In this document: positions 2,485-35,056 of the stretch, piece after piece | How positions within the stretch are numbered: position 1 is the first letter of the stretch | Layout of the letters: the number at the start of each line of letters is the position of its first letter | Sequence record: MT446411.1 | From: Escherichia virus TH40 | DNA: 64,000 bases | Strand: one strand, 5' to 3' | Notes under the pieces: model-generated | What the model was told of the DNA's origin: nothing | The model's input: only the letters and a program-made list of their open reading frames with translations | Database searches by the model: none | Program-made: the position numbers and the translations under genes

Positions 2485-2813
2485 CTCTTTTTCATTTTAA
2501 TCTTATCAATTTCATCTTGTATTTGCATTGTAACACACTTTTCTACATGCACTGCAAGCTCCGCTTTGCGGTCTTCAGAAGGGGTGCCGAAATCAACTGA
2601 AACTTTTCCAGATGGTTCAATTTTAATTCCGGTTACGTACACAATGTGATTGGACCCATCAGGGAGTGATAACAGAATTTCCTGCCGTACAGTTCCCATG
2701 GATTGCCGGATAATCTCCAAACTTTTTTCGTAGTAAGGTACAGAAGGAGCCTTAGCTCCCTCCGCATCTTTCTCGAAATTATCTAAATCAGATAAATCGA
2801 TATCATTCATCAA
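2469..2813 (-). CDS. 40: gp40-like head vertex assembly protein
   Basis: 114 aa ORF between uvsX and 41, the position and size of T4 gene 40. Confidence 0.6.
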   Translation of the reverse strand: MMNDIDLSDLDNFEKDAEGAKAPSVPYYEKSLEIIRQSMGTVRQEILLSLPDGSNHIVYVTGIKIEPSGKVSVDFGTPSEDRKAELAVHVEKCVTMQIQDEIDKIKMKKRWWKW

Positions 2814-3981
2814 GGTCTTCCATCATATCTAAATCGTTTTCGATATCTGCCGCAGACGGTTTTGTCTTACCTTCAGGAGCAGAGTATTTTTCAACCTTGG
2901 AGGCAATAAGCGCATCAACTTCGGCGTCAACAACAGCATTGCTATCGATTGCACCCAGCTGGTAATGTCGTTTGATTGCATCACGGAAAGGTTCGTGCTT
3001 GAACAACGGACCCCAGAATTCGGTACAGTTAGTATCTTTTGCGCGCCATGATTTTTCTTCGCGGACCATTTCACCGGTCTCAACATCAAGATATTCACGG
3101 TTATACCAACCAACTTTCGGTTTCACCACAAATCCGATTTCCATTGCCATATCAAGCAGGCCAGAATACGGGTCAATACCACCATCGAATTTTACATCAA
3201 TGAAGAATTTACTTTTCTCTTTGACCATACGAGATTTTTCGGCGTTCAGAACAAATTGGAAACCTTCAAGTTCTTTACCGGTTTCTTTAATCTGGCGTTT
3301 GCCGATAATGAATACGGTGTCCGCAGAATACATAACACCTGTACCACCGGTCATAACGGTTTTGCTGTACATCTCAATCGTCTCGATTGTATGGTTAACC
3401 GCGACACAAGGAATATCCTTGATACTAAAATACGGGGTAACAATACGGAACAGAGATTTCAAGGATTTAGCACGAGTCATATCGCCAACGACTTTTTCGT
3501 TCATCGCATCTTCTGTTTCTTTTTTAGACGCCATGTTACCGATTGAGTCAATAAAGATAATGACTTTTTCACCGCGCTCAATTGCTTCAAGCTGGTTAAC
3601 CATATCAACTTTCAATTGTTCAACCGACTGGATTGGTGTATGGATAACACGCTCCGGGTCTACTTTCATTGCACGAAGATAAGCTTCGGTGATACCAAAT
3701 TCTGAATCATAGAACAAACAGATTGCGTCGGGGTATTTGTTCATATATGCAGAGACCATCGTTAAACCCATATTGGATTTAAAGTGTTTTGACGGACCAG
3801 CAAAAATAGTCAAACCTGACTGCATACCACCATCTAGTGCACCGCTGATTGCAATGTTCAGCATCGGGATTTTTGTACGAACTACATCTTTATCATTAAA
3901 AAACTTGGACTTAGTAAGAGTCGCAGTCATTTTGGATGTAGAAGCTTTAATCAAACGGGATTTCAAATCTGCAATAGACAT
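2803..3981 (-). CDS. uvsX: UvsX RecA-like recombinase
   Basis: 392 aa; RecA-fold ATP-binding loop GPSKHFKS; strong resemblance to T4 UvsX as recalled. Confidence 0.93.
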   Translation of the reverse strand: MSIADLKSRLIKASTSKMTATLTKSKFFNDKDVVRTKIPMLNIAISGALDGGMQSGLTIFAGPSKHFKSNMGLTMVSAYMNKYPDAICLFYDSEFGITEAYLRAMKVDPERVIHTPIQSVEQLKVDMVNQLEAIERGEKVIIFIDSIGNMASKKETEDAMNEKVVGDMTRAKSLKSLFRIVTPYFSIKDIPCVAVNHTIETIEMYSKTVMTGGTGVMYSADTVFIIGKRQIKETGKELEGFQFVLNAEKSRMVKEKSKFFIDVKFDGGIDPYSGLLDMAMEIGFVVKPKVGWYNREYLDVETGEMVREEKSWRAKDTNCTEFWGPLFKHEPFRDAIKRHYQLGAIDSNAVVDAEVDALIASKVEKYSAPEGKTKPSAADIENDLDMMEDLDE

Positions 3982-4060
3982 TCATTTTTTCCATAGGCAC
4001 CATTATATTTTTCTCACAGGTTTAAGATAGGATAATTATATCACTGTATTTTTAGAGCAA

Positions 4061-4189
4061 TTAACGATTGAATCCACGATTAATTGCACGTTCAACAATC
4101 TTCCGGGTCTGACGTTTGTCCCACCAGTACATAAAACCAATACCAAATGCAGACAACAGCCACAGACTAATCAATAGCATACCAATCAT
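4061..4189 (-). CDS. Possible 42-aa single-TM peptide (hand-called, below ORF-track cutoff)
   Basis: Hand translation MIGMLLISLWLLSAFGIGFMYWWDKRQTRK...; no clear SD. Confidence 0.25.
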   Translation of the reverse strand: MIGMLLISLWLLSAFGIGFMYWWDKRQTRKIVERAINRGFNR

Positions 4190-4216
4190 AATATTTTTCT
4201 CGCAGTTCGGAGTAAT

Positions 4217-4324
4217 TTAGTAAACGTTTCCGCGTTTCCAGTTTTCTTCAGCCAAATGCTTATTACGCTTTTCTAATAGCAGCAAACCAATTACTGTTCC
4301 AACAATCAGAAGTAATAATAGCAT
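4217..4324 (-). CDS. Possible 35-aa single-TM peptide, start overlaps lipoprotein stop (TGATG)
   Basis: Hand translation MLLLLLIVGTVIGLLLLEKRNKHLAEENWKRGNVY; 1-nt stop/start overlap suggests coupling. Confidence 0.3.
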   Translation of the reverse strand: MLLLLLIVGTVIGLLLLEKRNKHLAEENWKRGNVY

Positions 4325-4827
4325 CAGTTAATACCTTGGCGTGCTTTCTCTTTAGCTATACATTTATTAATATAGCTCAGACGGTTTTGAGCAGAACGCT
4401 GATACATATCGCGATACTCATTGGCTTTTGGAGAACCCGTCTCTGCTGCCTGATAAGCTTCCGCGCGCATGATGTTTATCTGCATATTGATGTATGACAT
4501 GCAGACCTGTGAAATCTGGTTAACAGTATCCAGGTCATTTTGGCGCTTGGTTTCTGCTTCCAGTTTAGCAATGATTTCGTCATGCTTCGCAGCTTGTTCG
4601 CGTTTGTACTCAATTTCACGTTGAGCATATTTCGCGCAGTTATTTCCACATTGATTGTTGTCGCGTTTGTAGATAAGTCCAGTACCACCTTTGAAATCAA
4701 AGGAACCATTATGCACCTGACGGTCTGCAGCAATTCGCGCTTTACCAATCTCATTGGCATTAACAACATCGCCCTGGTAAGCACAACCAGATAGCAGCAT
4801 AACAGCTGCGATAGCTAACTTTTTCAT
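4324..4827 (-). CDS. Lipoprotein with coiled-coil region (start taken at MKKLAIAAVMLLSGC)
   Basis: Signal peptide plus lipobox LLSGC; GAGGAAA SD before internal Met; ORF track gives 4324..4854. Confidence 0.6.
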   Translation of the reverse strand: MKKLAIAAVMLLSGCAYQGDVVNANEIGKARIAADRQVHNGSFDFKGGTGLIYKRDNNQCGNNCAKYAQREIEYKREQAAKHDEIIAKLEAETKRQNDLDTVNQISQVCMSYINMQINIMRAEAYQAAETGSPKANEYRDMYQRSAQNRLSYINKCIAKEKARQGIN

Positions 4828-4977
4828 TGTATTTTCCTCAATTAAAACATTCATAACGGGCTTGGAGTCCCAAAAATACCCAACCCAAAATTAAAGTTGG
4901 AATCATATGCGGAGTCATTATTGCCCAATAGATTGACATACTAAAAAATGCAATCAGTACAATAATTGTAATTATCT

Positions 4978-5220
4978 TCATTTGGTTTCCTTGATGATAA
5001 TTACATGTGCATTTGATTTACGCTCAGCAACGAGTGCCCAGATAAATGCAATAAACCATCCGACCATTGTCCAACCTAACAGGAGGTTAACAAAGAAGAT
5101 TCCGCAATTACTTTTGGTTCCTCGCAGTAGCGCGATAATCCACGGCAGAAAATATGCCAGTGCAGCCAGGAAGAAAGAACCAGCACCAAGAACAACAGTA
5201 CCTGCAATTAATGTTTCCAT
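4978..5220 (-). CDS. imm: Superinfection-immunity (Imm)-like two-TM membrane protein
   Basis: 80 aa, two hydrophobic helices, LLGWTMVGW..WAL motif; located just downstream of gene 43 as imm is in T4. Confidence 0.6.
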   Translation of the reverse strand: METLIAGTVVLGAGSFFLAALAYFLPWIIALLRGTKSNCGIFFVNLLLGWTMVGWFIAFIWALVAERKSNAHVIIIKETK

Positions 5221-5240: not shown

Positions 5241-5290
5241 CATCAGTAGTTGATGGAGTAATCATACGGCAATCCTTTGCCGTTGTAAAC
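5241..5290 (-). promoter_or_regulatory. T4-early-type promoter plus conserved leader (type A) upstream of imm
   Basis: Minus strand reads GTTTACA ... cATAAT-like ... CCATCAACTACTGA ... AAGGA ATG; seen directly. Confidence 0.5.
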
Positions 5291-5292
5291 AC

Positions 5293-8007
5293 TTAAAAAT
5301 CAAACATATCAAAAAGAGATGCTTTTTTCTCGTAATCAACCTTAGCTGCTTCAGAGAACCCTGTTAACGGTTTGACAAAAGTCTTCTGGAACAGTGTGTT
5401 GTAGTCCATCCACTGCAGAACCTGGTCACGAATTTCAATCGGGAGTTCAATCCCTGATGGCCATGCAATCACGGTTTCGCCAAACGGGTTACCAACTTTA
5501 AGAGGAAGCACATACACCTTTTCCCCTTCCATGATTTGTGGAACAGTCTTCAGCCCTTTAGTTGCACGCATATATGCAAGCACACCTTTGATATGAGCCG
5601 GGCACTTAAATCCAGGGAAACCACCCTCATTATATTTCTGGATGTTGTTAACTGATGATACACCCGCGATGGTCATGTAGTTAAGCTCATTAAATTCCTT
5701 ATTGAATTCCTTGAAGTATGTCTGCAGAGATTCTTCACCTTCTTGCAGCATGCGACGGATACATTCTTTCAGAGCTTTCTGGCATGCTTTTGGGGTGCTC
5801 GACTTTTGAGTTTCCAGACCCATGATTTTAAGTTTCGGAACAGCATATCGTGTGCCTTCCATATCGTACACATTCAGAGCATAACGCTTCTTCGCTGTCC
5901 AGAATCCACCAACACCTTTAGAACCCAGCGGAGGGCATGCAATCGCTTCACGGTCCATAAACATAAGGTGCTGTTTGTTGTTCATGTATTCAGCCAGCTC
6001 ACGGAAAGCTTTATCGATTGCCGGTTCCAGACGGTCTTTCGCAAACTTGTCCATGAAGTCAACCAGGTGGTTTGTATCGCGGAATTTAGATTCGCCACCA
6101 ACCTTTTTAATCAGGTTATCGCACTGAATATAAATGGAGTCAGTATCGCCATAGAATACATATGTTTCACCACTTGTACCACAAACACTATCAAAATATT
6201 CGTTAACTTTACGCTCAATCCACTGCAATGCAAGTTGACCAAAAGATGTAATTGCGGTTGCATTTCGCAGGTCAAAATAACGGAACCAGATATTACCCAG
6301 AGCACCATAACAACTGTTGATAAGCAGTTTACGGTTAATCTGTGCGGTCATGCCTGCAACTTCTTCCATCTGCGCTTTGTACAACATACCATTCAGAACT
6401 GTTTGATTCAGACCATGCAAGGCTGTTTTCATATTGTCATCAAAGTCATAACGATAATCAACTTCAGGCTCGGTTGTACCAACTCCTGGATTACGCAGAG
6501 CTTCCTTAATCAGTTCACCATTACGTTGAGCCGCAAGCATATAACCTTTGTGCTCTTTACGCTGATTAAACACCTTGGTGACTTCTGTCGGAATAATACC
6601 TGCAACATCTTTAAAATACATCATACCGTTTGGAGCACAACTAAATGTATCAGATGGACGGTCAGCAGTTCCTGCGATGTATTCGTACATTGGCGCTGGT
6701 GCAAATGAGCCGGCAATCGTTTCTGGACTGATGTTAATCTGTCGGATGATGCTCGGATACAGAGATGTTAAGTCACAGCTCATAACGTATTTGTATGCGT
6801 TCGGAATCGGTTCCTTAACAAATGCACCAGGGAACGATTGGCGAACATGCGATTTGGTTTCCGGAATGACTTTGTTTTGAGTCTTCAGGCTGTTAAAGAT
6901 AATCGCATCCCAAGTTTTGATTGGGCTGAATACAGACTGAATCTGCATTTTTGCGTAATAACCCATTGACTGGCTAAGGTTAATAAACTGTCGTTTACGG
7001 TCAATCTGTACAACACGATAAACATCGATGATGTTATAAGAAATATACCGTTGGTGATTTGATTCACGCAGTTTAGAAATCGGACCATCATACGGGAGTT
7101 TACCAACACCCAGCTCAGATTCTGCAACATAATCCAACGAATAAGATGGTTGGTTTGTGAAGCTGAACTTTTTGTACAGGTCCAGATAATCCAGAACAGA
7201 GATACCCAGAATCTGAATGATTTCTTGTTCTTCACCGAAACCGTTGTTAATGACCTTAACTTTTGTACGACGATGTGGACTCAGTCGTTTTGCCGTAGCT
7301 TCACCAAATACATTTTTAAGGCGGTTGTAGATATATGGAATATCAAACTTCTCGATGTTCCAACCAGTTAACATAACCGGAGTTTTCTCGTTCCAGAATA
7401 CCAAATACTGCTGGAGCATTTCTTCTTCTGAATCGAAAGCCATATAAACAATTTTTTCCAGGATTTCTTCAGGGACTTCATCGCCGCCATCTTCTTGCAG
7501 CTTAGCAGCAATATCGATAGACCATTGCTCCACAGTGGCGTATGGTGAGCTCAAAAGGTCAAAGACATAGAATTTATCGTCTATCGAATCATAGTGCGTC
7601 AGGGCATCAATAGGGTGACGTGCTTCAGACGGCTCAGGGAACCCATCAGGAGATGTCACCTCGATATCGAAGTTAGCCACACGGATTTTACTTGAATCGT
7701 ATTTGATTTCGTGTGGGTAACGGTCGGACAAGTACGCGAGTTTAAAGTCATCCATACCCATAGCTTCGAGACCCATGTCATTCATTCGCTTCATCCACTG
7801 GGATGCATCACGCATGGAATCGAATTCTTTTTTCACACAACCTTTATTATAGATGTCTGTATACTTTGCAGCCTGGTCTTCGCGGGCATGCATAAACAGG
7901 CATGGAGCATAGGGGATTTCACGAACACGTTCATGACCATTCTTGTCAATGTATCGTTCGAGTAGGTTGTCACCGATTTGTTCGATAGTTAAATAAAATT
8001 CTTGCAT
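5293..8007 (-). CDS. 43: Family-B DNA polymerase with 3'-5' exonuclease (T4 gp43-like)
   Basis: 904 aa; exo motif FDIE, polymerase motif YGDTDS, overall T4 gp43-like. Confidence 0.96.
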   Translation of the reverse strand: MQEFYLTIEQIGDNLLERYIDKNGHERVREIPYAPCLFMHAREDQAAKYTDIYNKGCVKKEFDSMRDASQWMKRMNDMGLEAMGMDDFKLAYLSDRYPHEIKYDSSKIRVANFDIEVTSPDGFPEPSEARHPIDALTHYDSIDDKFYVFDLLSSPYATVEQWSIDIAAKLQEDGGDEVPEEILEKIVYMAFDSEEEMLQQYLVFWNEKTPVMLTGWNIEKFDIPYIYNRLKNVFGEATAKRLSPHRRTKVKVINNGFGEEQEIIQILGISVLDYLDLYKKFSFTNQPSYSLDYVAESELGVGKLPYDGPISKLRESNHQRYISYNIIDVYRVVQIDRKRQFINLSQSMGYYAKMQIQSVFSPIKTWDAIIFNSLKTQNKVIPETKSHVRQSFPGAFVKEPIPNAYKYVMSCDLTSLYPSIIRQINISPETIAGSFAPAPMYEYIAGTADRPSDTFSCAPNGMMYFKDVAGIIPTEVTKVFNQRKEHKGYMLAAQRNGELIKEALRNPGVGTTEPEVDYRYDFDDNMKTALHGLNQTVLNGMLYKAQMEEVAGMTAQINRKLLINSCYGALGNIWFRYFDLRNATAITSFGQLALQWIERKVNEYFDSVCGTSGETYVFYGDTDSIYIQCDNLIKKVGGESKFRDTNHLVDFMDKFAKDRLEPAIDKAFRELAEYMNNKQHLMFMDREAIACPPLGSKGVGGFWTAKKRYALNVYDMEGTRYAVPKLKIMGLETQKSSTPKACQKALKECIRRMLQEGEESLQTYFKEFNKEFNELNYMTIAGVSSVNNIQKYNEGGFPGFKCPAHIKGVLAYMRATKGLKTVPQIMEGEKVYVLPLKVGNPFGETVIAWPSGIELPIEIRDQVLQWMDYNTLFQKTFVKPLTGFSEAAKVDYEKKASLFDMFDF

Positions 8008-20280: not shown

Positions 20281-22094
20281 TGGTGTTTAACCCTATGCAT
20301 GATTTCTTTATTTTTGCCGAGATTAAATCCGCGTTCGTTCGGATTTCCCAAATAACCGCAAGTTCTTCTTATTGTGTTCATCTTTTTAGGGTCAGTTTCT
20401 CCACAAATAGAACAAACAAATCCGTTTTCAGTAGGAGTCATTTCATGGGTACTTCCACACGTAAAACATTTATCTACTGGCATGTTAACACCAAAATAAT
20501 CTAAATGTTGCGCAGCATAATCCCATACAGCCTCAAGACCTTTTAAGTTATTTTTCATATCAGGAAGTTCAACATAAGAAATGTGACCACCTGTCGCAAT
20601 GAAATGATATGGAGCTTCGCGGGAAATCTTTTCAAACGGGGTGATATTTTCTTCTACTGAAACATGGAAACTATTAGTGTACCAGCCTTTATCAGTAACA
20701 TCCTTTACACTTCCATATTTTTCAGTATCAAGTTTACAGAAGCGATAACAAAGGTTTTCAGCAGGTGTAGAATACAAACTAAAAGCAAAACCGGTTCTTT
20801 CAGTCCACTGCTTAAGACGAGCATTCATTTTAGTTAAAATTTCTTGCCCAATATCACGACCGGCAAGAATATTCAATTCGTGAATACCAATGTATCCCAA
20901 AGACACTGAACTTCTACCGTTTTTAAATAACTCAATTATATCATCATCAGGTTTAAGACGAACCCCGAATGCACCTTCTTGGTAAAGAATAGGAGCAACA
21001 GTCGCTTTAACTCCTTTTAAAGAACTAATTCTACACATCAAAGCTTCAAAACACAAATCCATTCGCTCATTGAACAATTCGATAAATTTCTGTTCATTGA
21101 ACTGTGTTCCAATATAAGAATCTAACGCAATGCGAGGAAGATTCAGTGTTACAACGCCAAGATTATTACGTCCATCAAGAATTTCATTGCCAGTCGAATC
21201 TTTCCATACGCTCAAGAAACTACGACATCCCATTGGAGAAACAGGAATAGATGAGCCGGTGATAGCTTTATTGTTCTTAGCTGAAATAATATCAGGATAC
21301 ATTCTTTTGCTTGCACACTCTAGAGCAAGCTGCTTAATATCATAGTTCGGGTCGTCTTTATAAAGATTAACACCTTCTTCAACGAACATAACAAGTTTAG
21401 GGAAAATAGGAGTTATCCCATCGCGACCAAGACCTTTGATACGATTTTTCAGAATTGCTTTCTGAATCATTCGTTCAGTCCAGTCAGTTCCCGTGCCAAA
21501 CGTAATTGTCACAAAAGGCGTTTGCCCATTTGAACTAAAGAGCGTATTTACTTCATATTCATAAGCTTGGAATGCATCGTATACGTCTTTTTCTGTTTTA
21601 GATTGGGCATAATTCAATGCATCAGTGATTTGCCATTTTTCTGCATCTTCAATATGTTTTGCGTATGTACGTTTAACATAAGGAGAAAATACTTTGTCTA
21701 CATTAGCAAAAGTCGTTCCACCATATTGGTGAGAAGCAACCTGTGCAGTAATTTGTGCCATAATTGCAGTAGCAACACCAATTGATTTAGGAGTTTCAAT
21801 CTGCGCATTACCGAGCTTAAACCCGTTCTCAAGCATTCCTTTTAAATCTACTAAACAGCAATTAGTAAATGGAAGAGCAGGGGAATAATCAATATCATGG
21901 AAATGAATAATTCCACTTTCATGTGCTTTCATAATAAAAGACGCGACCATATTTTTGGCAATGTGTTTAGATACAATACCAGCCATAAGGTCCCGTTGAG
22001 TTGGAAAAACACGAGAATCTTTATTAGCATTCTCGTTTAAAAGGTCTTTATTAGTTTTATGAATCAATCCTTCAATTTCGTTTTCAATTGTCAT
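20277..22094 (-). CDS. nrdD: Anaerobic ribonucleoside-triphosphate reductase (class III)
   Basis: 605 aa; C-terminal glycyl-radical motif RTCGY and Cys-rich zinc site; uninterrupted reading frame. Confidence 0.95.
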   Translation of the reverse strand: MTIENEIEGLIHKTNKDLLNENANKDSRVFPTQRDLMAGIVSKHIAKNMVASFIMKAHESGIIHFHDIDYSPALPFTNCCLVDLKGMLENGFKLGNAQIETPKSIGVATAIMAQITAQVASHQYGGTTFANVDKVFSPYVKRTYAKHIEDAEKWQITDALNYAQSKTEKDVYDAFQAYEYEVNTLFSSNGQTPFVTITFGTGTDWTERMIQKAILKNRIKGLGRDGITPIFPKLVMFVEEGVNLYKDDPNYDIKQLALECASKRMYPDIISAKNNKAITGSSIPVSPMGCRSFLSVWKDSTGNEILDGRNNLGVVTLNLPRIALDSYIGTQFNEQKFIELFNERMDLCFEALMCRISSLKGVKATVAPILYQEGAFGVRLKPDDDIIELFKNGRSSVSLGYIGIHELNILAGRDIGQEILTKMNARLKQWTERTGFAFSLYSTPAENLCYRFCKLDTEKYGSVKDVTDKGWYTNSFHVSVEENITPFEKISREAPYHFIATGGHISYVELPDMKNNLKGLEAVWDYAAQHLDYFGVNMPVDKCFTCGSTHEMTPTENGFVCSICGETDPKKMNTIRRTCGYLGNPNERGFNLGKNKEIMHRVKHQ

Positions 22095-34341: not shown

Positions 34342-34725
34342 TTACTCTAGTGTTAACAGATACTTAGTTTGAAAGAAAACTCCAACGATATCGTCCAGAG
34401 TCGATTGAATAGCCTTAGGTACAACTTTATAGACTCTTTCAGAGCTTTTAATCATTTCATCTAAAAACAAAATTGTATCTTTCGGCAAGTCCGAGGCGGA
34501 CGGTAATGCAGCTTTGTATTGTTTCCCACTGTAACCTAACCATTGTTCACTGAACTGGTCGAGTGGACCTTGGATTTCTGTGAAGTAGAAATCATAAGCT
34601 TTATGGCGGGCGTAACTTTTGGTTTCAAGATGGGCGGACTTAAAATATGCTAAAGAGGTTAATAGCCACCCAATGTATGAATCCACCTCAGACCCACGAC
34701 CTGTTACGAAATCATCGAATTTCAT
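34342..34725 (-). CDS. Hypothetical protein (127 aa)
   Basis: ORF track. Confidence 0.4.
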   Translation of the reverse strand: MKFDDFVTGRGSEVDSYIGWLLTSLAYFKSAHLETKSYARHKAYDFYFTEIQGPLDQFSEQWLGYSGKQYKAALPSASDLPKDTILFLDEMIKSSERVYKVVPKAIQSTLDDIVGVFFQTKYLLTLE

Positions 34726-35056
34726 CTTCCAATTTTACCTTCATTAATTTAGCGTATTCGACTGCAGCAGCCCGGCCATCAATTTGACATGTGATTTCAT
34801 TTACACATTGACTCTTATTGTTCCATTCAGTTTTAATAAAAGCCCAAAATTGTTCGGACTGCTCGACGCTGGGTTCTTTGAATTGCGAATAGATTTGCAT
34901 CGCACTATCTGCATATTGTGTAAATTTACCATCTGTAGCAGAGGACAGATTTGGGCCTAAACAGCCCATTAGTAATAGACTTAGAGAAAGTCCTCGAATA
35001 AGGTCCATAAAGGACTCCTTATTGTTGGTCATGATTACGCTTTGCAGCCTTAACAT
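34712..35056 (-). CDS. Putative lipoprotein (lipobox LLMGC); late-promoter-like TATAAATA upstream
   Basis: ORF track; LSLSLLLMGC signal; minus-strand TATAAATA at 35080-35087. Confidence 0.45.
   Translation of the reverse strand: MLRLQSVIMTNNKESFMDLIRGLSLSLLLMGCLGPNLSSATDGKFTQYADSAMQIYSQFKEPSVEQSEQFWAFIKTEWNNKSQCVNEITCQIDGRAAAVEYAKLMKVKLEDEIR

What the first reader, a model, noticed from the sequence alone, without database searches (positions are those of the whole stretch)
4061..5220. Lipoprotein plus two mini-TM peptides beside imm, where T4 carries gene 42 and beta-glucosyltransferase
Between uvsX and 43, T4 encodes beta-gt, dCMP hydroxymethylase (42) and imm. Here only an Imm-like two-TM protein is present, followed by a 167-aa lipoprotein and two possible 35-42 aa single-TM peptides with a coupled stop/start. 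A lipoprotein next to an immunity protein is the arrangement expected for receptor-blocking or envelope-acting superinfection exclusion (as Llp and Cor do in other phages).
Basis: inference. Interest (0 to 1): 0.6.

Follow-up and report, generated by a model that had tools for sequence, protein, structure and literature searches.

The report
Small envelope genes beside phage imm
This stretch of a T4-like coliphage (VR7 group) holds five small cell-envelope genes: the known immunity gene imm, a tiny conserved membrane protein, an uncharacterised lipoprotein and two optional micro-proteins. It is a real but fairly ordinary accessory cluster whose suspected role in blocking secondary infection is untested.

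Summary
The ORFs exist as described, all on the minus strand of a Gaprivervirus (98.5% identical to phage RZ). They are imm (4978-5220), a 167-aa lipoprotein with a canonical lipobox (4324-4827), and 35-aa and 42-aa single-pass ORFs.

The lipoprotein belongs to a small family found only in T4-like phages (phrog_1754). It has no Pfam domain, no structural analogue and no similarity to Llp or Cor. It always lies just downstream of gene 43.

T4 also has a lipoprotein (imm.1) beside imm, so that contrast with T4 is partly wrong. What this genus lacks is the DNA-modification block (gene 42 and neighbours).

A lipoprotein lies next to imm in four lineages. In Mosigvirus the pair has moved to sit beside spackle. 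This supports an envelope-level exclusion role. Other genera, however, carry the lipoprotein without a detectable Imm.

The two micro-ORFs appear to be real genes but are independent cassettes. All four presence/absence combinations occur, and the 42-aa gene has a Dhakavirus homologue just upstream of uvsX. The exclusion function is plausible and unproven. Interest is modest.

The parts
5261..5289 (-). Early-promoter-like site (GTTTACA, 17 nt spacer, TATGAT) in the 72-nt gap between gene 43 and imm. A hairpin, ACGGCAAAGGATTGCCGT, lies in the spacer.
   Evidence: Consensus scan, 10 of 12 matches, and sequence. The scan as a whole does not exceed shuffles, so its function is inferred from position and from its resemblance to the T4 early -35 GTTTAC (own knowledge).
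4978..5220 (-). imm: 80-aa inner-membrane protein with two transmembrane segments, an orthologue of T4 Imm.
   Evidence: PF14373 E 9.5e-18; phrog_1039 E 7e-30; 50.6% identity to T4 Imm over 83 aa; pN/pS 0.15.
4838..4981 (-). 47-aa protein with two hydrophobic segments, of the T4 Y02C / '42.1' family. It overlaps the imm stop as ATGA.
   Evidence: phrog_3610 E 7.6e-27. tblastn finds it in 573 phage records, including RB69 ORF054c and an unannotated T4 remnant. A homologue carries PF26865 Phage_T4_Y02C. pN/pS 0.05.
4324..4827 (-). 167-aa prolipoprotein: signal peptide plus lipobox LLSG|C15, Ala at +2. The mature 152 aa has the core motif FKGGTGLIYKRxxNQCGNNC and four further conserved Cys (60, 64, 109, 156). 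It belongs to the orphan family phrog_1754.
   Evidence: Lipobox. phrog_1754 E 5.7e-47 and no Pfam hit. Only 18 representative clusters among 1.84 billion proteins. Alignments A2 and A3. AF2 model with pLDDT 77: beta-hairpin 41-55, helices 63-130 and 135-163. pN/pS 0.05.
4217..4324 (-). Optional 35-aa single-pass micro-protein gene. Its ATG overlaps the lipoprotein stop (TGATG).
   Evidence: Present in 11 Gaprivervirus records only. Intact in 7 of 7 loci examined, pN/pS 0.19. Precise presence/absence boundaries.
4061..4189 (-). Optional 42-aa single-pass micro-protein gene with a basic tail, DKRQTRKIVERAINRGFNR.
   Evidence: Found in 16 Gaprivervirus records. JS98 has an unannotated 43-aa homologue directly upstream of uvsX. 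pN/pS 0.14. The cassette is bounded by a 28-nt direct repeat, 3992-4019 and 4178-4205, 79% identical.
4035..4062 (-). Middle-promoter-like site for uvsX: MotA-box-like TTGCTCTA, 12 nt, TATAAT. It starts at the stop codon of the 42-aa ORF.
   Evidence: Sequence. Identical in all four cassette configurations. The same layout is present in JS98. Assignment as a MotA-type promoter rests on the T4 consensus (own knowledge).

Best explanation
SHOWN.
- The interval is a run of five co-oriented genes for small envelope proteins in the variable region between gene 43 and uvsX of a VR7-like (Gaprivervirus) T4-type coliphage. In order they are imm, the 47-aa Y02C/42.1 protein, an orphan lipoprotein (phrog_1754), and two optional micro-proteins.
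- The sister genus Dhakavirus has 43, imm, Y02C, lipoprotein, then a block of about 4.3 kb of DNA-modification genes (a nucleotidyl-transferase and a gene-42-type thymidylate-synthase homologue), then a 43-aa ORF and uvsX. Gaprivervirus lacks that block, so the envelope genes abut uvsX.

INFERRED.
- The five genes are probably read early, from a T4-early-type promoter just after gene 43.
- The lipoprotein is exported, lipidated on Cys15 and sorted to the inner leaflet of the outer membrane, because Ala rather than Asp follows the Cys. It faces the periplasm.
- Two disulfides form there (C60-C64 and C109-C156), stabilising a beta-hairpin/CxxxC knob and a helical hairpin.
- Its most likely job is to help make the infected cell refractory to incoming T-even phages at a periplasmic, post-adsorption step. 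It would act in parallel with, or together with, Imm, as T4 imm.1 may do. Masking one particular receptor is less likely.
- The 35-aa and 42-aa proteins are separate membrane micro-proteins (N-terminus out, C-terminus in). They are gained and lost as independent cassettes by recombination at short repeats and are not part of a lipoprotein module.
For: Identity and gene map.

Family and distribution: phrog_1754 E 5.7e-47. There are 121 phage records, all T4-like Enterobacterales phages, and the gene is always just downstream of gene 43.

Periplasmic location:
- Lipobox.
- Four conserved Cys. One member (P0021) has lost C60 and C64 together while keeping C109 and C156.
- One member (P0018) has a plain signal peptide in place of the lipobox.

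Link to imm:
- Adjacency in T4, Mosigvirus (where the pair has moved next to spackle), Serratia 92A1 (overlapping genes) and Dhakavirus/Gaprivervirus.
- A post-lipobox motif, G(D/P)VVxxx(E/D)(V/I)GK, is shared with T4 Imm.1 and the 92A1 lipoprotein.

Conserved target rather than a variable receptor: the core motif is invariant across phages of Escherichia, Enterobacter, Serratia, Edwardsiella and Kosakonia.

Loss of the modification block.

Micro-ORFs real but independent.

T4 Imm and Spackle acting together in exclusion: PMC7677548.
Against: - There is no functional evidence at all. The family has no characterised member, and sequence and fold searches return only family members.
- Adjacency to imm is not universal. 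Kanagawavirus and Winklervirus have 43, lipoprotein, arabinose-5-P isomerase with no imm within 2.5 kb.
- At most 4 Enterobacter phage records show an Imm match, against 16 that carry the lipoprotein.
- Homology to Imm.1 beyond the N-terminal motif is not significant once the signal peptide is removed: E 0.004 for 14 columns, and the C-terminal part is not significant.
- The region downstream of gene 43 is a general hot spot for accessory genes, so co-location may be historical rather than functional.
- Promoter assignments are consensus matches only.
Confidence: 0.42

Rival explanations
1. Receptor-masking lipoprotein of the Llp/Cor type. It would bind the periplasmic face of the phage's outer-membrane receptor and switch it off, preventing re-adsorption and loss of progeny on cell debris.
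For: It is predicted to be a periplasm-facing outer-membrane lipoprotein with intramolecular disulfides, probably expressed early, as Llp is (PMC9586334).
Against: - No similarity to Cor or Llp. The phrog_1119 hit covers only residues 10-26 of the signal peptide, E 0.027.
- It is 2.5 times larger than Llp.
- It is encoded between replication genes, not beside the receptor-binding-protein gene as Llp and Cor are (PMC9586334, PMC11990801).
- The core motif is invariant across phages of at least five host genera, which are unlikely to share one receptor.
- It is 96-99% identical across about 30 Gapriverviruses.
Confidence: 0.1
2. An envelope lipoprotein with a role unrelated to exclusion. Examples: stabilising the envelope of the infected cell, modulating lysis timing or lysis inhibition, or countering a periplasmic or envelope-based host defence. 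On this view its position near imm is an accident of the gene-43 accessory hot spot.
For: - The lipoprotein occurs without an adjacent or detectable imm in Kanagawavirus, Winklervirus and Enterobacter phages.
- In those phages it overlaps a sugar-isomerase gene instead.
- The locus is highly variable between genera.
Against: - Lipoprotein-imm adjacency recurs in four lineages, including co-relocation beside spackle in Mosigvirus.
- No match to PADLOC or anti-defence-like families.
- It does not look like a spanin: it is not proline-rich and small, and no i-spanin partner is adjacent.
Confidence: 0.3
3. The lipoprotein and the two micro-peptides form one functional module.
For: They share a strand and probably a transcript. 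The lipoprotein stop and the 35-aa start overlap (TGATG).
Against: - All four combinations occur among about 33 near-identical Gaprivervirus records: both micro-ORFs, the 42-aa only, the 35-aa only, or neither. The lipoprotein is present in all of them.
- In JS98 the homologue of the 42-aa gene lies 4.3 kb from the lipoprotein and is coupled to a different gene.
Confidence: 0.05
4. The 35-aa ORF, and less probably the 42-aa ORF, is a chance open frame in AT-rich spacer DNA and is not translated.
For: - They are very short, with no family hits.
- The 35-aa ORF is confined to 11 closely related records and has a low-complexity Leu-rich N-terminus.
- Divergence is too low for a robust selection test.
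Against: - Both are intact in all carriers, with pN/pS 0.14-0.19.
- The start codon of the 35-aa ORF is precisely coupled to the preceding stop.
- The 42-aa ORF is conserved at 47% identity in another genus, with the same position and architecture, and 0 of 2000 shuffles reach its alignment score.
Confidence: 0.1

Closest known systems
T4 Imm (Pfam PF14373, Imm_superinfect)
   Same: The 80-aa gene at 4978-5220 is a clear orthologue: 50.6% identity, two transmembrane segments, and the same neighbourhood downstream of gene 43.
   Different: Nothing notable. The exclusion activity of this copy has not been tested.
T4 Imm.1 (Pfam DUF5481), an uncharacterised lipoprotein encoded between 43 and imm
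   Same: - Lipobox protein encoded beside imm.
- Shares the post-lipobox motif QG(D/P)VVNxx(E/D)(V/I)GK.
- Has Cys pairs in the mature part, and a C-terminal region with two Cys in similar contexts (..YC.. and YNxC(V/I)).
   Different: - No DUF5481 hit for the window protein.
- Similarity is not significant beyond about 14 residues once the signal peptide is removed.
- 125 aa against 167 aa, and it lacks the FKGGTGLxY...NQCGxNC core.
- It lies on the other side of imm.
- Its function is also unknown.
T5 Llp and the T1/phi80 Cor superinfection-exclusion lipoproteins
   Same: Phage-encoded lipoproteins that face the periplasm from the outer membrane and carry a disulfide. Llp is expressed early.
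   Different: There is no sequence or fold similarity. Llp and Cor are much smaller, are encoded next to the receptor-binding protein, and target FhuA specifically.
T4 Spackle (gp61.3), a periplasmic inhibitor of the gp5 tail lysozyme
   Same: A small, exported, helical, disulfide-containing early protein that acts in the periplasm. In Mosigvirus, spackle sits next to the imm.1-imm pair.
T4 Y02C / gp42.1 (PF26865, phrog_3610)
   Same: The 47-aa gene at 4838-4981 is a member. It is widely conserved next to imm or the arabinose-5-P isomerase gene.
   Different: Its function is unknown. In the T4 reference genome only an unannotated C-terminal remnant matches.
Short-repeat or promoter-flanked small-ORF cassettes of T4-type plastic regions (PeSL-type modular shuffling, Arbiol et al. 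2010; recalled from memory, not read here)
   Same: The 35-aa and 42-aa ORFs are gained and lost as exact units at promoter or leader repeats. A hairpin lies inside the early-promoter-like site upstream of imm.
   Different: PeSL membership was not tested against a PeSL consensus.

Membership tests
Imm_superinfect (T4 Imm) | Pfam PF14373 match above the gathering score | tested here: met
   64.3 bits against a cut-off of 27.9, E 9.5e-18.
Imm_superinfect (T4 Imm) | Small protein with two hydrophobic membrane segments, similar to T4 Imm over its full length | tested here: met
   Hydropathy; 50.6% identity over 83 aa.
Imm_superinfect (T4 Imm) | Blocks DNA entry of superinfecting T-even phages | not testable with these tools
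   Needs expression and superinfection assays.
Bacterial/phage lipoprotein (Lgt/LspA substrate) | Basic n-region, hydrophobic h-region and lipobox [LVI][ASTVI][GAS]C near the N-terminus | tested here: met
   MKKLAIAAVMLLSGC matches a PROSITE-type rule. The Cys is conserved in 22 of 24 family members.
Bacterial/phage lipoprotein (Lgt/LspA substrate) | Actual lipidation and outer-membrane sorting | not testable with these tools
   Ala at +2 predicts Lol-dependent outer-membrane sorting (established +2 rule). Globomycin or palmitate labelling and cell fractionation are needed.
Llp / Cor receptor-blocking exclusion lipoproteins | Sequence similarity to Cor or Llp | tested here: not met
   The Cor PHROG 1119 matches only the signal peptide (residues 10-26), E 0.027. 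No Llp family appears at E<=1. No hits in BFVD or PDB fold searches.
Llp / Cor receptor-blocking exclusion lipoproteins | Gene adjacent to the receptor-binding-protein / tail-tip genes | tested here: not met
   The gene lies between DNA polymerase and uvsX. The Llp and Cor loci are described in PMC9586334 and PMC11990801.
Llp / Cor receptor-blocking exclusion lipoproteins | Small mature protein (about 60-80 aa) with one disulfide | tested here: not met
   The mature protein is 152 aa with four conserved Cys.
T4 Imm.1 (DUF5481) | Pfam PF17578 match | tested here: not met
   T4 Imm.1 itself scores E 5e-72. The window lipoprotein has no hit at E<=1.
T4 Imm.1 (DUF5481) | Profile similarity of the mature domain | tested here: inconclusive
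   hhalign probability 96% including the signal peptide. Without it, only the 14-residue motif aligns (E 0.004) and the C-terminal part is not significant.
phrog_1754 (uncharacterised T4-like phage lipoprotein family) | HMM match over the full length and conserved synteny downstream of gene 43 | tested here: met
   E 5.7e-47, residues 10-170. Synteny.
T4 Y02C / 42.1 (phrog_3610, PF26865) | HMM match over the full length | tested here: met
   phrog_3610 E 7.6e-27, positions 1-47 of 47. The homologue in L017 carries PF26865. The local Pfam copy gave no hit.
o-spanin (Rz1-like lysis lipoprotein) | Small Pro-rich lipoprotein paired with an adjacent or embedded i-spanin gene, expressed late | tested here: not met
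   The mature protein is 152 aa, helical and not Pro-rich. Its neighbours are N-out/C-in micro-proteins with no periplasmic domain, and the locus lies among early and middle genes.

The most novel reading that the evidence does not exclude
Imm-type immunity in T-even phages is normally a two-layer system. An outer-membrane-anchored periplasmic lipoprotein (Imm.1 in T4 and Mosigvirus, phrog_1754 here) would cooperate physically with the inner-membrane Imm, and perhaps Y02C, to intercept the incoming tail tube or DNA conduit across the periplasm. This would define a new family of exclusion lipoproteins and explain why Imm alone gives only partial immunity.
Probability: 0.12. Interest if true: 0.6.

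Novelty: new member of a known kind. Interest (0 to 1): 0.33.

Why it matters
How T-even phages exclude secondary infection is understood for Spackle, which inhibits the gp5 lysozyme, but not for Imm. This work shows that a periplasmic lipoprotein gene repeatedly travels with imm. That gives a concrete, cheap experiment: express imm with and without the lipoprotein and with and without Y02C. It also supplies natural isogenic-like variants, because four cassette configurations exist among sequenced Gapriverviruses. If the lipoprotein does act in exclusion, it would be a new, non-Llp/Cor family. That would be relevant to designing phage cocktails from Dhakavirus and Gaprivervirus phages, because co-administered relatives could exclude each other. 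If it does not, this is simply one more uncharacterised accessory gene in a known variable region.

Tried and rejected
1. Pfam, NCBIfam and PADLOC scans of all five proteins. Only imm is recognised. The NCBIfam hit to a 'putative T6SS immunity periplasmic lipoprotein' (NF045617) scores 17.7 bits against a cut-off of 43 and covers only residues 4-35. I rejected it as a signal-peptide match.

3. Homology to T4 Imm.1. It looked strong (hhalign 96%) but collapsed to a 14-residue motif once the signal peptides were removed.

4. Cellular homologues. An exhaustive profile search of 1.84 billion representatives found only 18 clusters, and every context inspected was a T4-like phage contig.

5. Gene 42, beta-gt, segA and JS98 orf38-42 elsewhere in the window. 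None was found.

6. An RNA element in the interval. Rfam gave nothing below E 0.45.

7. Plus-strand ORFs overlapping the genes (34-85 aa). I treated these as spurious, because substitution patterns fit the minus-strand frames.

8. Literature. There are no papers on imm.1 function, phrog_1754 or T-even exclusion lipoproteins.
Full report
**What the window is.** The interval matches Escherichia phage vB_EcoM_RZ at 98.5% identity, and other VR7-like phages of genus Gaprivervirus (Straboviridae, Tevenvirinae) at 94-99%. All genes here are on the minus strand. In order along the window they are 41, 40, uvsX (2803-3981), the finding's interval, then 43 (5293-8007), regA, 62 and 44.

**Checking the observation.** Five ORFs fill 4061-5220.
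- imm, 4978-5220, 80 aa.
  - It matches PF14373 at E 9.5e-18.
  - It is 50.6% identical to T4 Imm.
  - Its ATG overlaps the imm stop (ATGA), and it has two hydrophobic segments.
  - It matches phrog_3610 at E 7.6e-27.
  - This is the '42.1'/Y02C family, found in 573 phage records. These include RB69 ORF054c and an unannotated remnant between T4 imm and 42.
  - A metagenomic homologue carries PF26865 Phage_T4_Y02C.
- The lipoprotein, 4324-4827, 167 aa.
  - A GAGGAA Shine-Dalgarno lies 7 nt upstream of its start.
  - MKKLAIAAVMLLSGC fits the lipobox rule, and Ala follows the Cys.
- A 35-aa ORF, 4217-4324, whose ATG overlaps the lipoprotein stop (TGATG).
- A 42-aa ORF, 4061-4189.

Both micro-ORFs consist of one N-terminal hydrophobic helix and a basic tail. 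By the positive-inside rule this predicts the N-terminus outside and the C-terminus inside.

**The comparison with T4.** T4 has uvsX, segA, beta-gt, 42, imm, imm.1 and 43. Neither gene has a homologue anywhere in the 64-kb window.

T4 imm.1, however, is itself a lipobox protein (MKIAILVIALGLAGC...) sitting next to imm. A lipoprotein beside imm is thus not special to this phage.

The informative comparison is with the sister genus Dhakavirus. JS98, and a metagenomic relative L017, have this order:
- 43, imm, Y02C, lipoprotein;
- a 557-aa nucleotidyl-transferase-like gene, then orf41 and orf40;
- a thymidylate-synthase-fold gene-42 homologue, then orf38;
- an unannotated 43-aa ORF, then uvsX.

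None of JS98 orf38-42 is present in the window. Gaprivervirus is therefore the Dhakavirus arrangement minus about 4.3 kb of DNA-modification genes. Two papers report that Gaprivervirus lacks a dCMP hydroxymethylase genome-wide yet keeps alc, denB, denA and dCTPase. They call its DNA chemistry an open question (PMC8056088, PMC12115623).

**The lipoprotein family.**
- *Size and range.* It matches phrog_1754 (function unknown) at E 5.7e-47, with no Pfam domain. tblastn finds it in 121 phage records: Gaprivervirus, Dhakavirus (about 50%), and Kanagawavirus, Winklervirus and related phages of Enterobacter, Edwardsiella, Serratia, Erwinia and Kosakonia (28-40%). An exhaustive profile search of 1.84 billion representative proteins finds only 18 clusters. 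Every context inspected is a T4-like contig with the gene just downstream of 43.
- *Conserved residues.* The alignment shows invariant G48, G50, Y53, G61, C109 and C156, and a core motif FKxGTGLxYxRxxNQCGxNCxxYA.
- *Evidence for a periplasmic domain.* One member (P0021) has lost C60 and C64 together while keeping C109 and C156, which suggests disulfides C60-C64 and C109-C156. Another member (P0018) has an ordinary signal peptide instead of a lipobox. Both observations point to a periplasmic working domain.
- *Predicted structure.* AF2 with the 21-sequence alignment gives pLDDT 77. It shows a beta-hairpin (41-55), a long helix (63-130) and a return helical hairpin (135-163, pLDDT about 96).
- *No similarity to Cor or Llp.* The only Cor hit is to the signal peptide.
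- *Selection.* Within Gaprivervirus the gene is under strong purifying selection, pN/pS 0.05.

**Is it linked to imm?**

For a link, a lipobox protein lies next to imm in four lineages:
- T4: imm.1, then imm.
- Mosigvirus JK42: dmd, imm.1-like, imm, spackle. Here the pair sits in a different part of the genome, beside the other known exclusion gene.
- Serratia phage 92A1: 43, a 157-aa lipoprotein, then an overlapping 52-aa imm.
- Dhakavirus and Gaprivervirus: imm, Y02C, lipoprotein.

These lipoproteins also share a post-lipobox motif, G(D/P)VVxxx(E/D)(V/I)GK.

Against a link:
- With signal peptides removed, only that 14-residue motif aligns (E 0.004). The rest is not significant, so common ancestry with Imm.1 is unproven.
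- Kanagawavirus and Winklervirus have 43, lipoprotein, arabinose-5-P isomerase, Y02C, with no imm nearby.
- Enterobacter phages account for 16 lipoprotein records but at most 4 Imm matches with either of two Imm queries.

An obligate partnership with Imm is therefore excluded. A looser functional relation is not.

**The micro-ORFs.** Among about 33 Gaprivervirus records that carry the lipoprotein, the 42-aa ORF is in 16 and the 35-aa ORF is in 11. All four combinations occur:

| Configuration | Examples |
|---|---|
| Both ORFs | window, RZ, MN01, TH44, 212 |
| 42-aa only | VR7, VR20, VR26, DK-13 |
| 35-aa only | TH41, UPEC01, VR25 |
| Neither | EAWsc9, SP18 |

Alignment shows clean cassette boundaries. 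The 42-aa cassette is bracketed by a 28-nt direct repeat of the uvsX leader. It ends in the MotA-box-like sequence that precedes uvsX in every configuration.

Both ORFs are intact in all carriers, with pN/pS 0.19 and 0.14, though the counts are small.

The 42-aa ORF has an unannotated JS98 homologue, MLGPLLLFIGLLLFSFGALLLLVWLEKREVRKIVDKAINRGIK. It shares 20 identities, and 0 of 2000 shuffles reach the alignment score. It lies directly upstream of uvsX and is coupled to orf38, 4.3 kb from the lipoprotein.

These are therefore probably real membrane micro-proteins, but they are independent accessory cassettes and not partners of the lipoprotein.

**Expression.** Expression timing is inferred, not shown. 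A site matching the T4 early-promoter form (GTTTACA, 17 nt, TATGAT) lies in the 43-imm gap, with a hairpin in its spacer. No convincing terminator occurs before uvsX; the single terminator-like site (4901-4879) lies inside the 47-aa coding sequence. uvsX has its own MotA-type middle-promoter-like site at 4035-4062. The five genes are thus probably one early transcription unit, which argues against a late, lysis-type role.

I rank the possible roles of the lipoprotein as follows:
- A periplasmic, outer-membrane-anchored early protein that contributes to envelope-level exclusion or protection at a conserved post-adsorption step: about 0.35-0.45.
- An unrelated envelope function: about 0.3.
- Receptor masking: about 0.1.

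All five genes are already present, as 'hypothetical protein' or 'lipoprotein', in public annotations. The family is uncharacterised, so this is at most a new member of a known kind, and interest is modest.

Noticed in passing
whole window; deletion junction at about 4190-4330: No homologue of gene 42, beta-gt or the Dhakavirus/RB69-type sugar-modification genes exists in the 64-kb window. Published analyses say Gaprivervirus lacks dCMP hydroxymethylase genome-wide while keeping alc, denB, denA and dCTPase. Its DNA base chemistry is therefore an open puzzle (PMC8056088, PMC12115623). The place where the modification block is missing is exactly this interval.
   Followed up: partly
L009 2945-3076 (-) = JS98 EF469154.1, about 21944-22075: An unannotated 43-aa membrane ORF lies directly upstream of uvsX in Dhakavirus JS98. 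It is homologous to the window's 42-aa ORF, and its ATG overlaps the orf38 stop.
   Followed up: yes
T4 NC_000866.4 26230-26319 (-): The T4 reference has an unannotated remnant of the 47-aa Y02C/42.1 gene between imm and 42 (residues 18-47, 57% identity). T2 and RB14 carry the full-length gene.
   Followed up: partly
window 4967-5005: A 14-nt inverted repeat (93% complementary, 11-nt loop) spans the imm stop and the 47-aa gene start. The loop holds the AGGAAA Shine-Dalgarno. It may control translational coupling.
   Followed up: no
window 3992-4019 and 4178-4205: A 28-nt direct repeat (79% identical) links the uvsX leader and the start of the 42-aa ORF. The uvsX leader keeps ATGGTGCCTATG, which resembles the first four codons of the 42-aa ORF (ATGATTGGTATG). 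This looks like a footprint of cassette gain or loss by short-repeat recombination.
   Followed up: partly
window 34712-35008 (-): This is the only other ORF in the window with a lipobox-like N-terminus (98 aa, MDLIRGLSLSLLLMGC...). I did not check whether it is a real gene.
   Followed up: no
L020 (Mosigvirus JK42) 1495-2530; L021 (Serratia phage 92A1) 1508-2132: In Mosigvirus, the imm.1-like lipoprotein, imm and spackle are three consecutive genes beside dmd. In 92A1 a 157-aa lipoprotein overlaps a truncated 52-aa Imm. Both are natural variants useful for testing a lipoprotein-Imm link.
   Followed up: partly
public annotations of homologues: There are several evidently spurious product names. 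T4 imm.1 is called 'iduronate sulfatase' in RefSeq. The lipoprotein is called 'capsid and scaffold protein' in PSD2001, P8 and vB_EcoM_FB, and 'recombination endonuclease subunit-containing protein' in SHP1. The RZ RefSeq record uses an upstream start that gives 176 aa.
   Followed up: no
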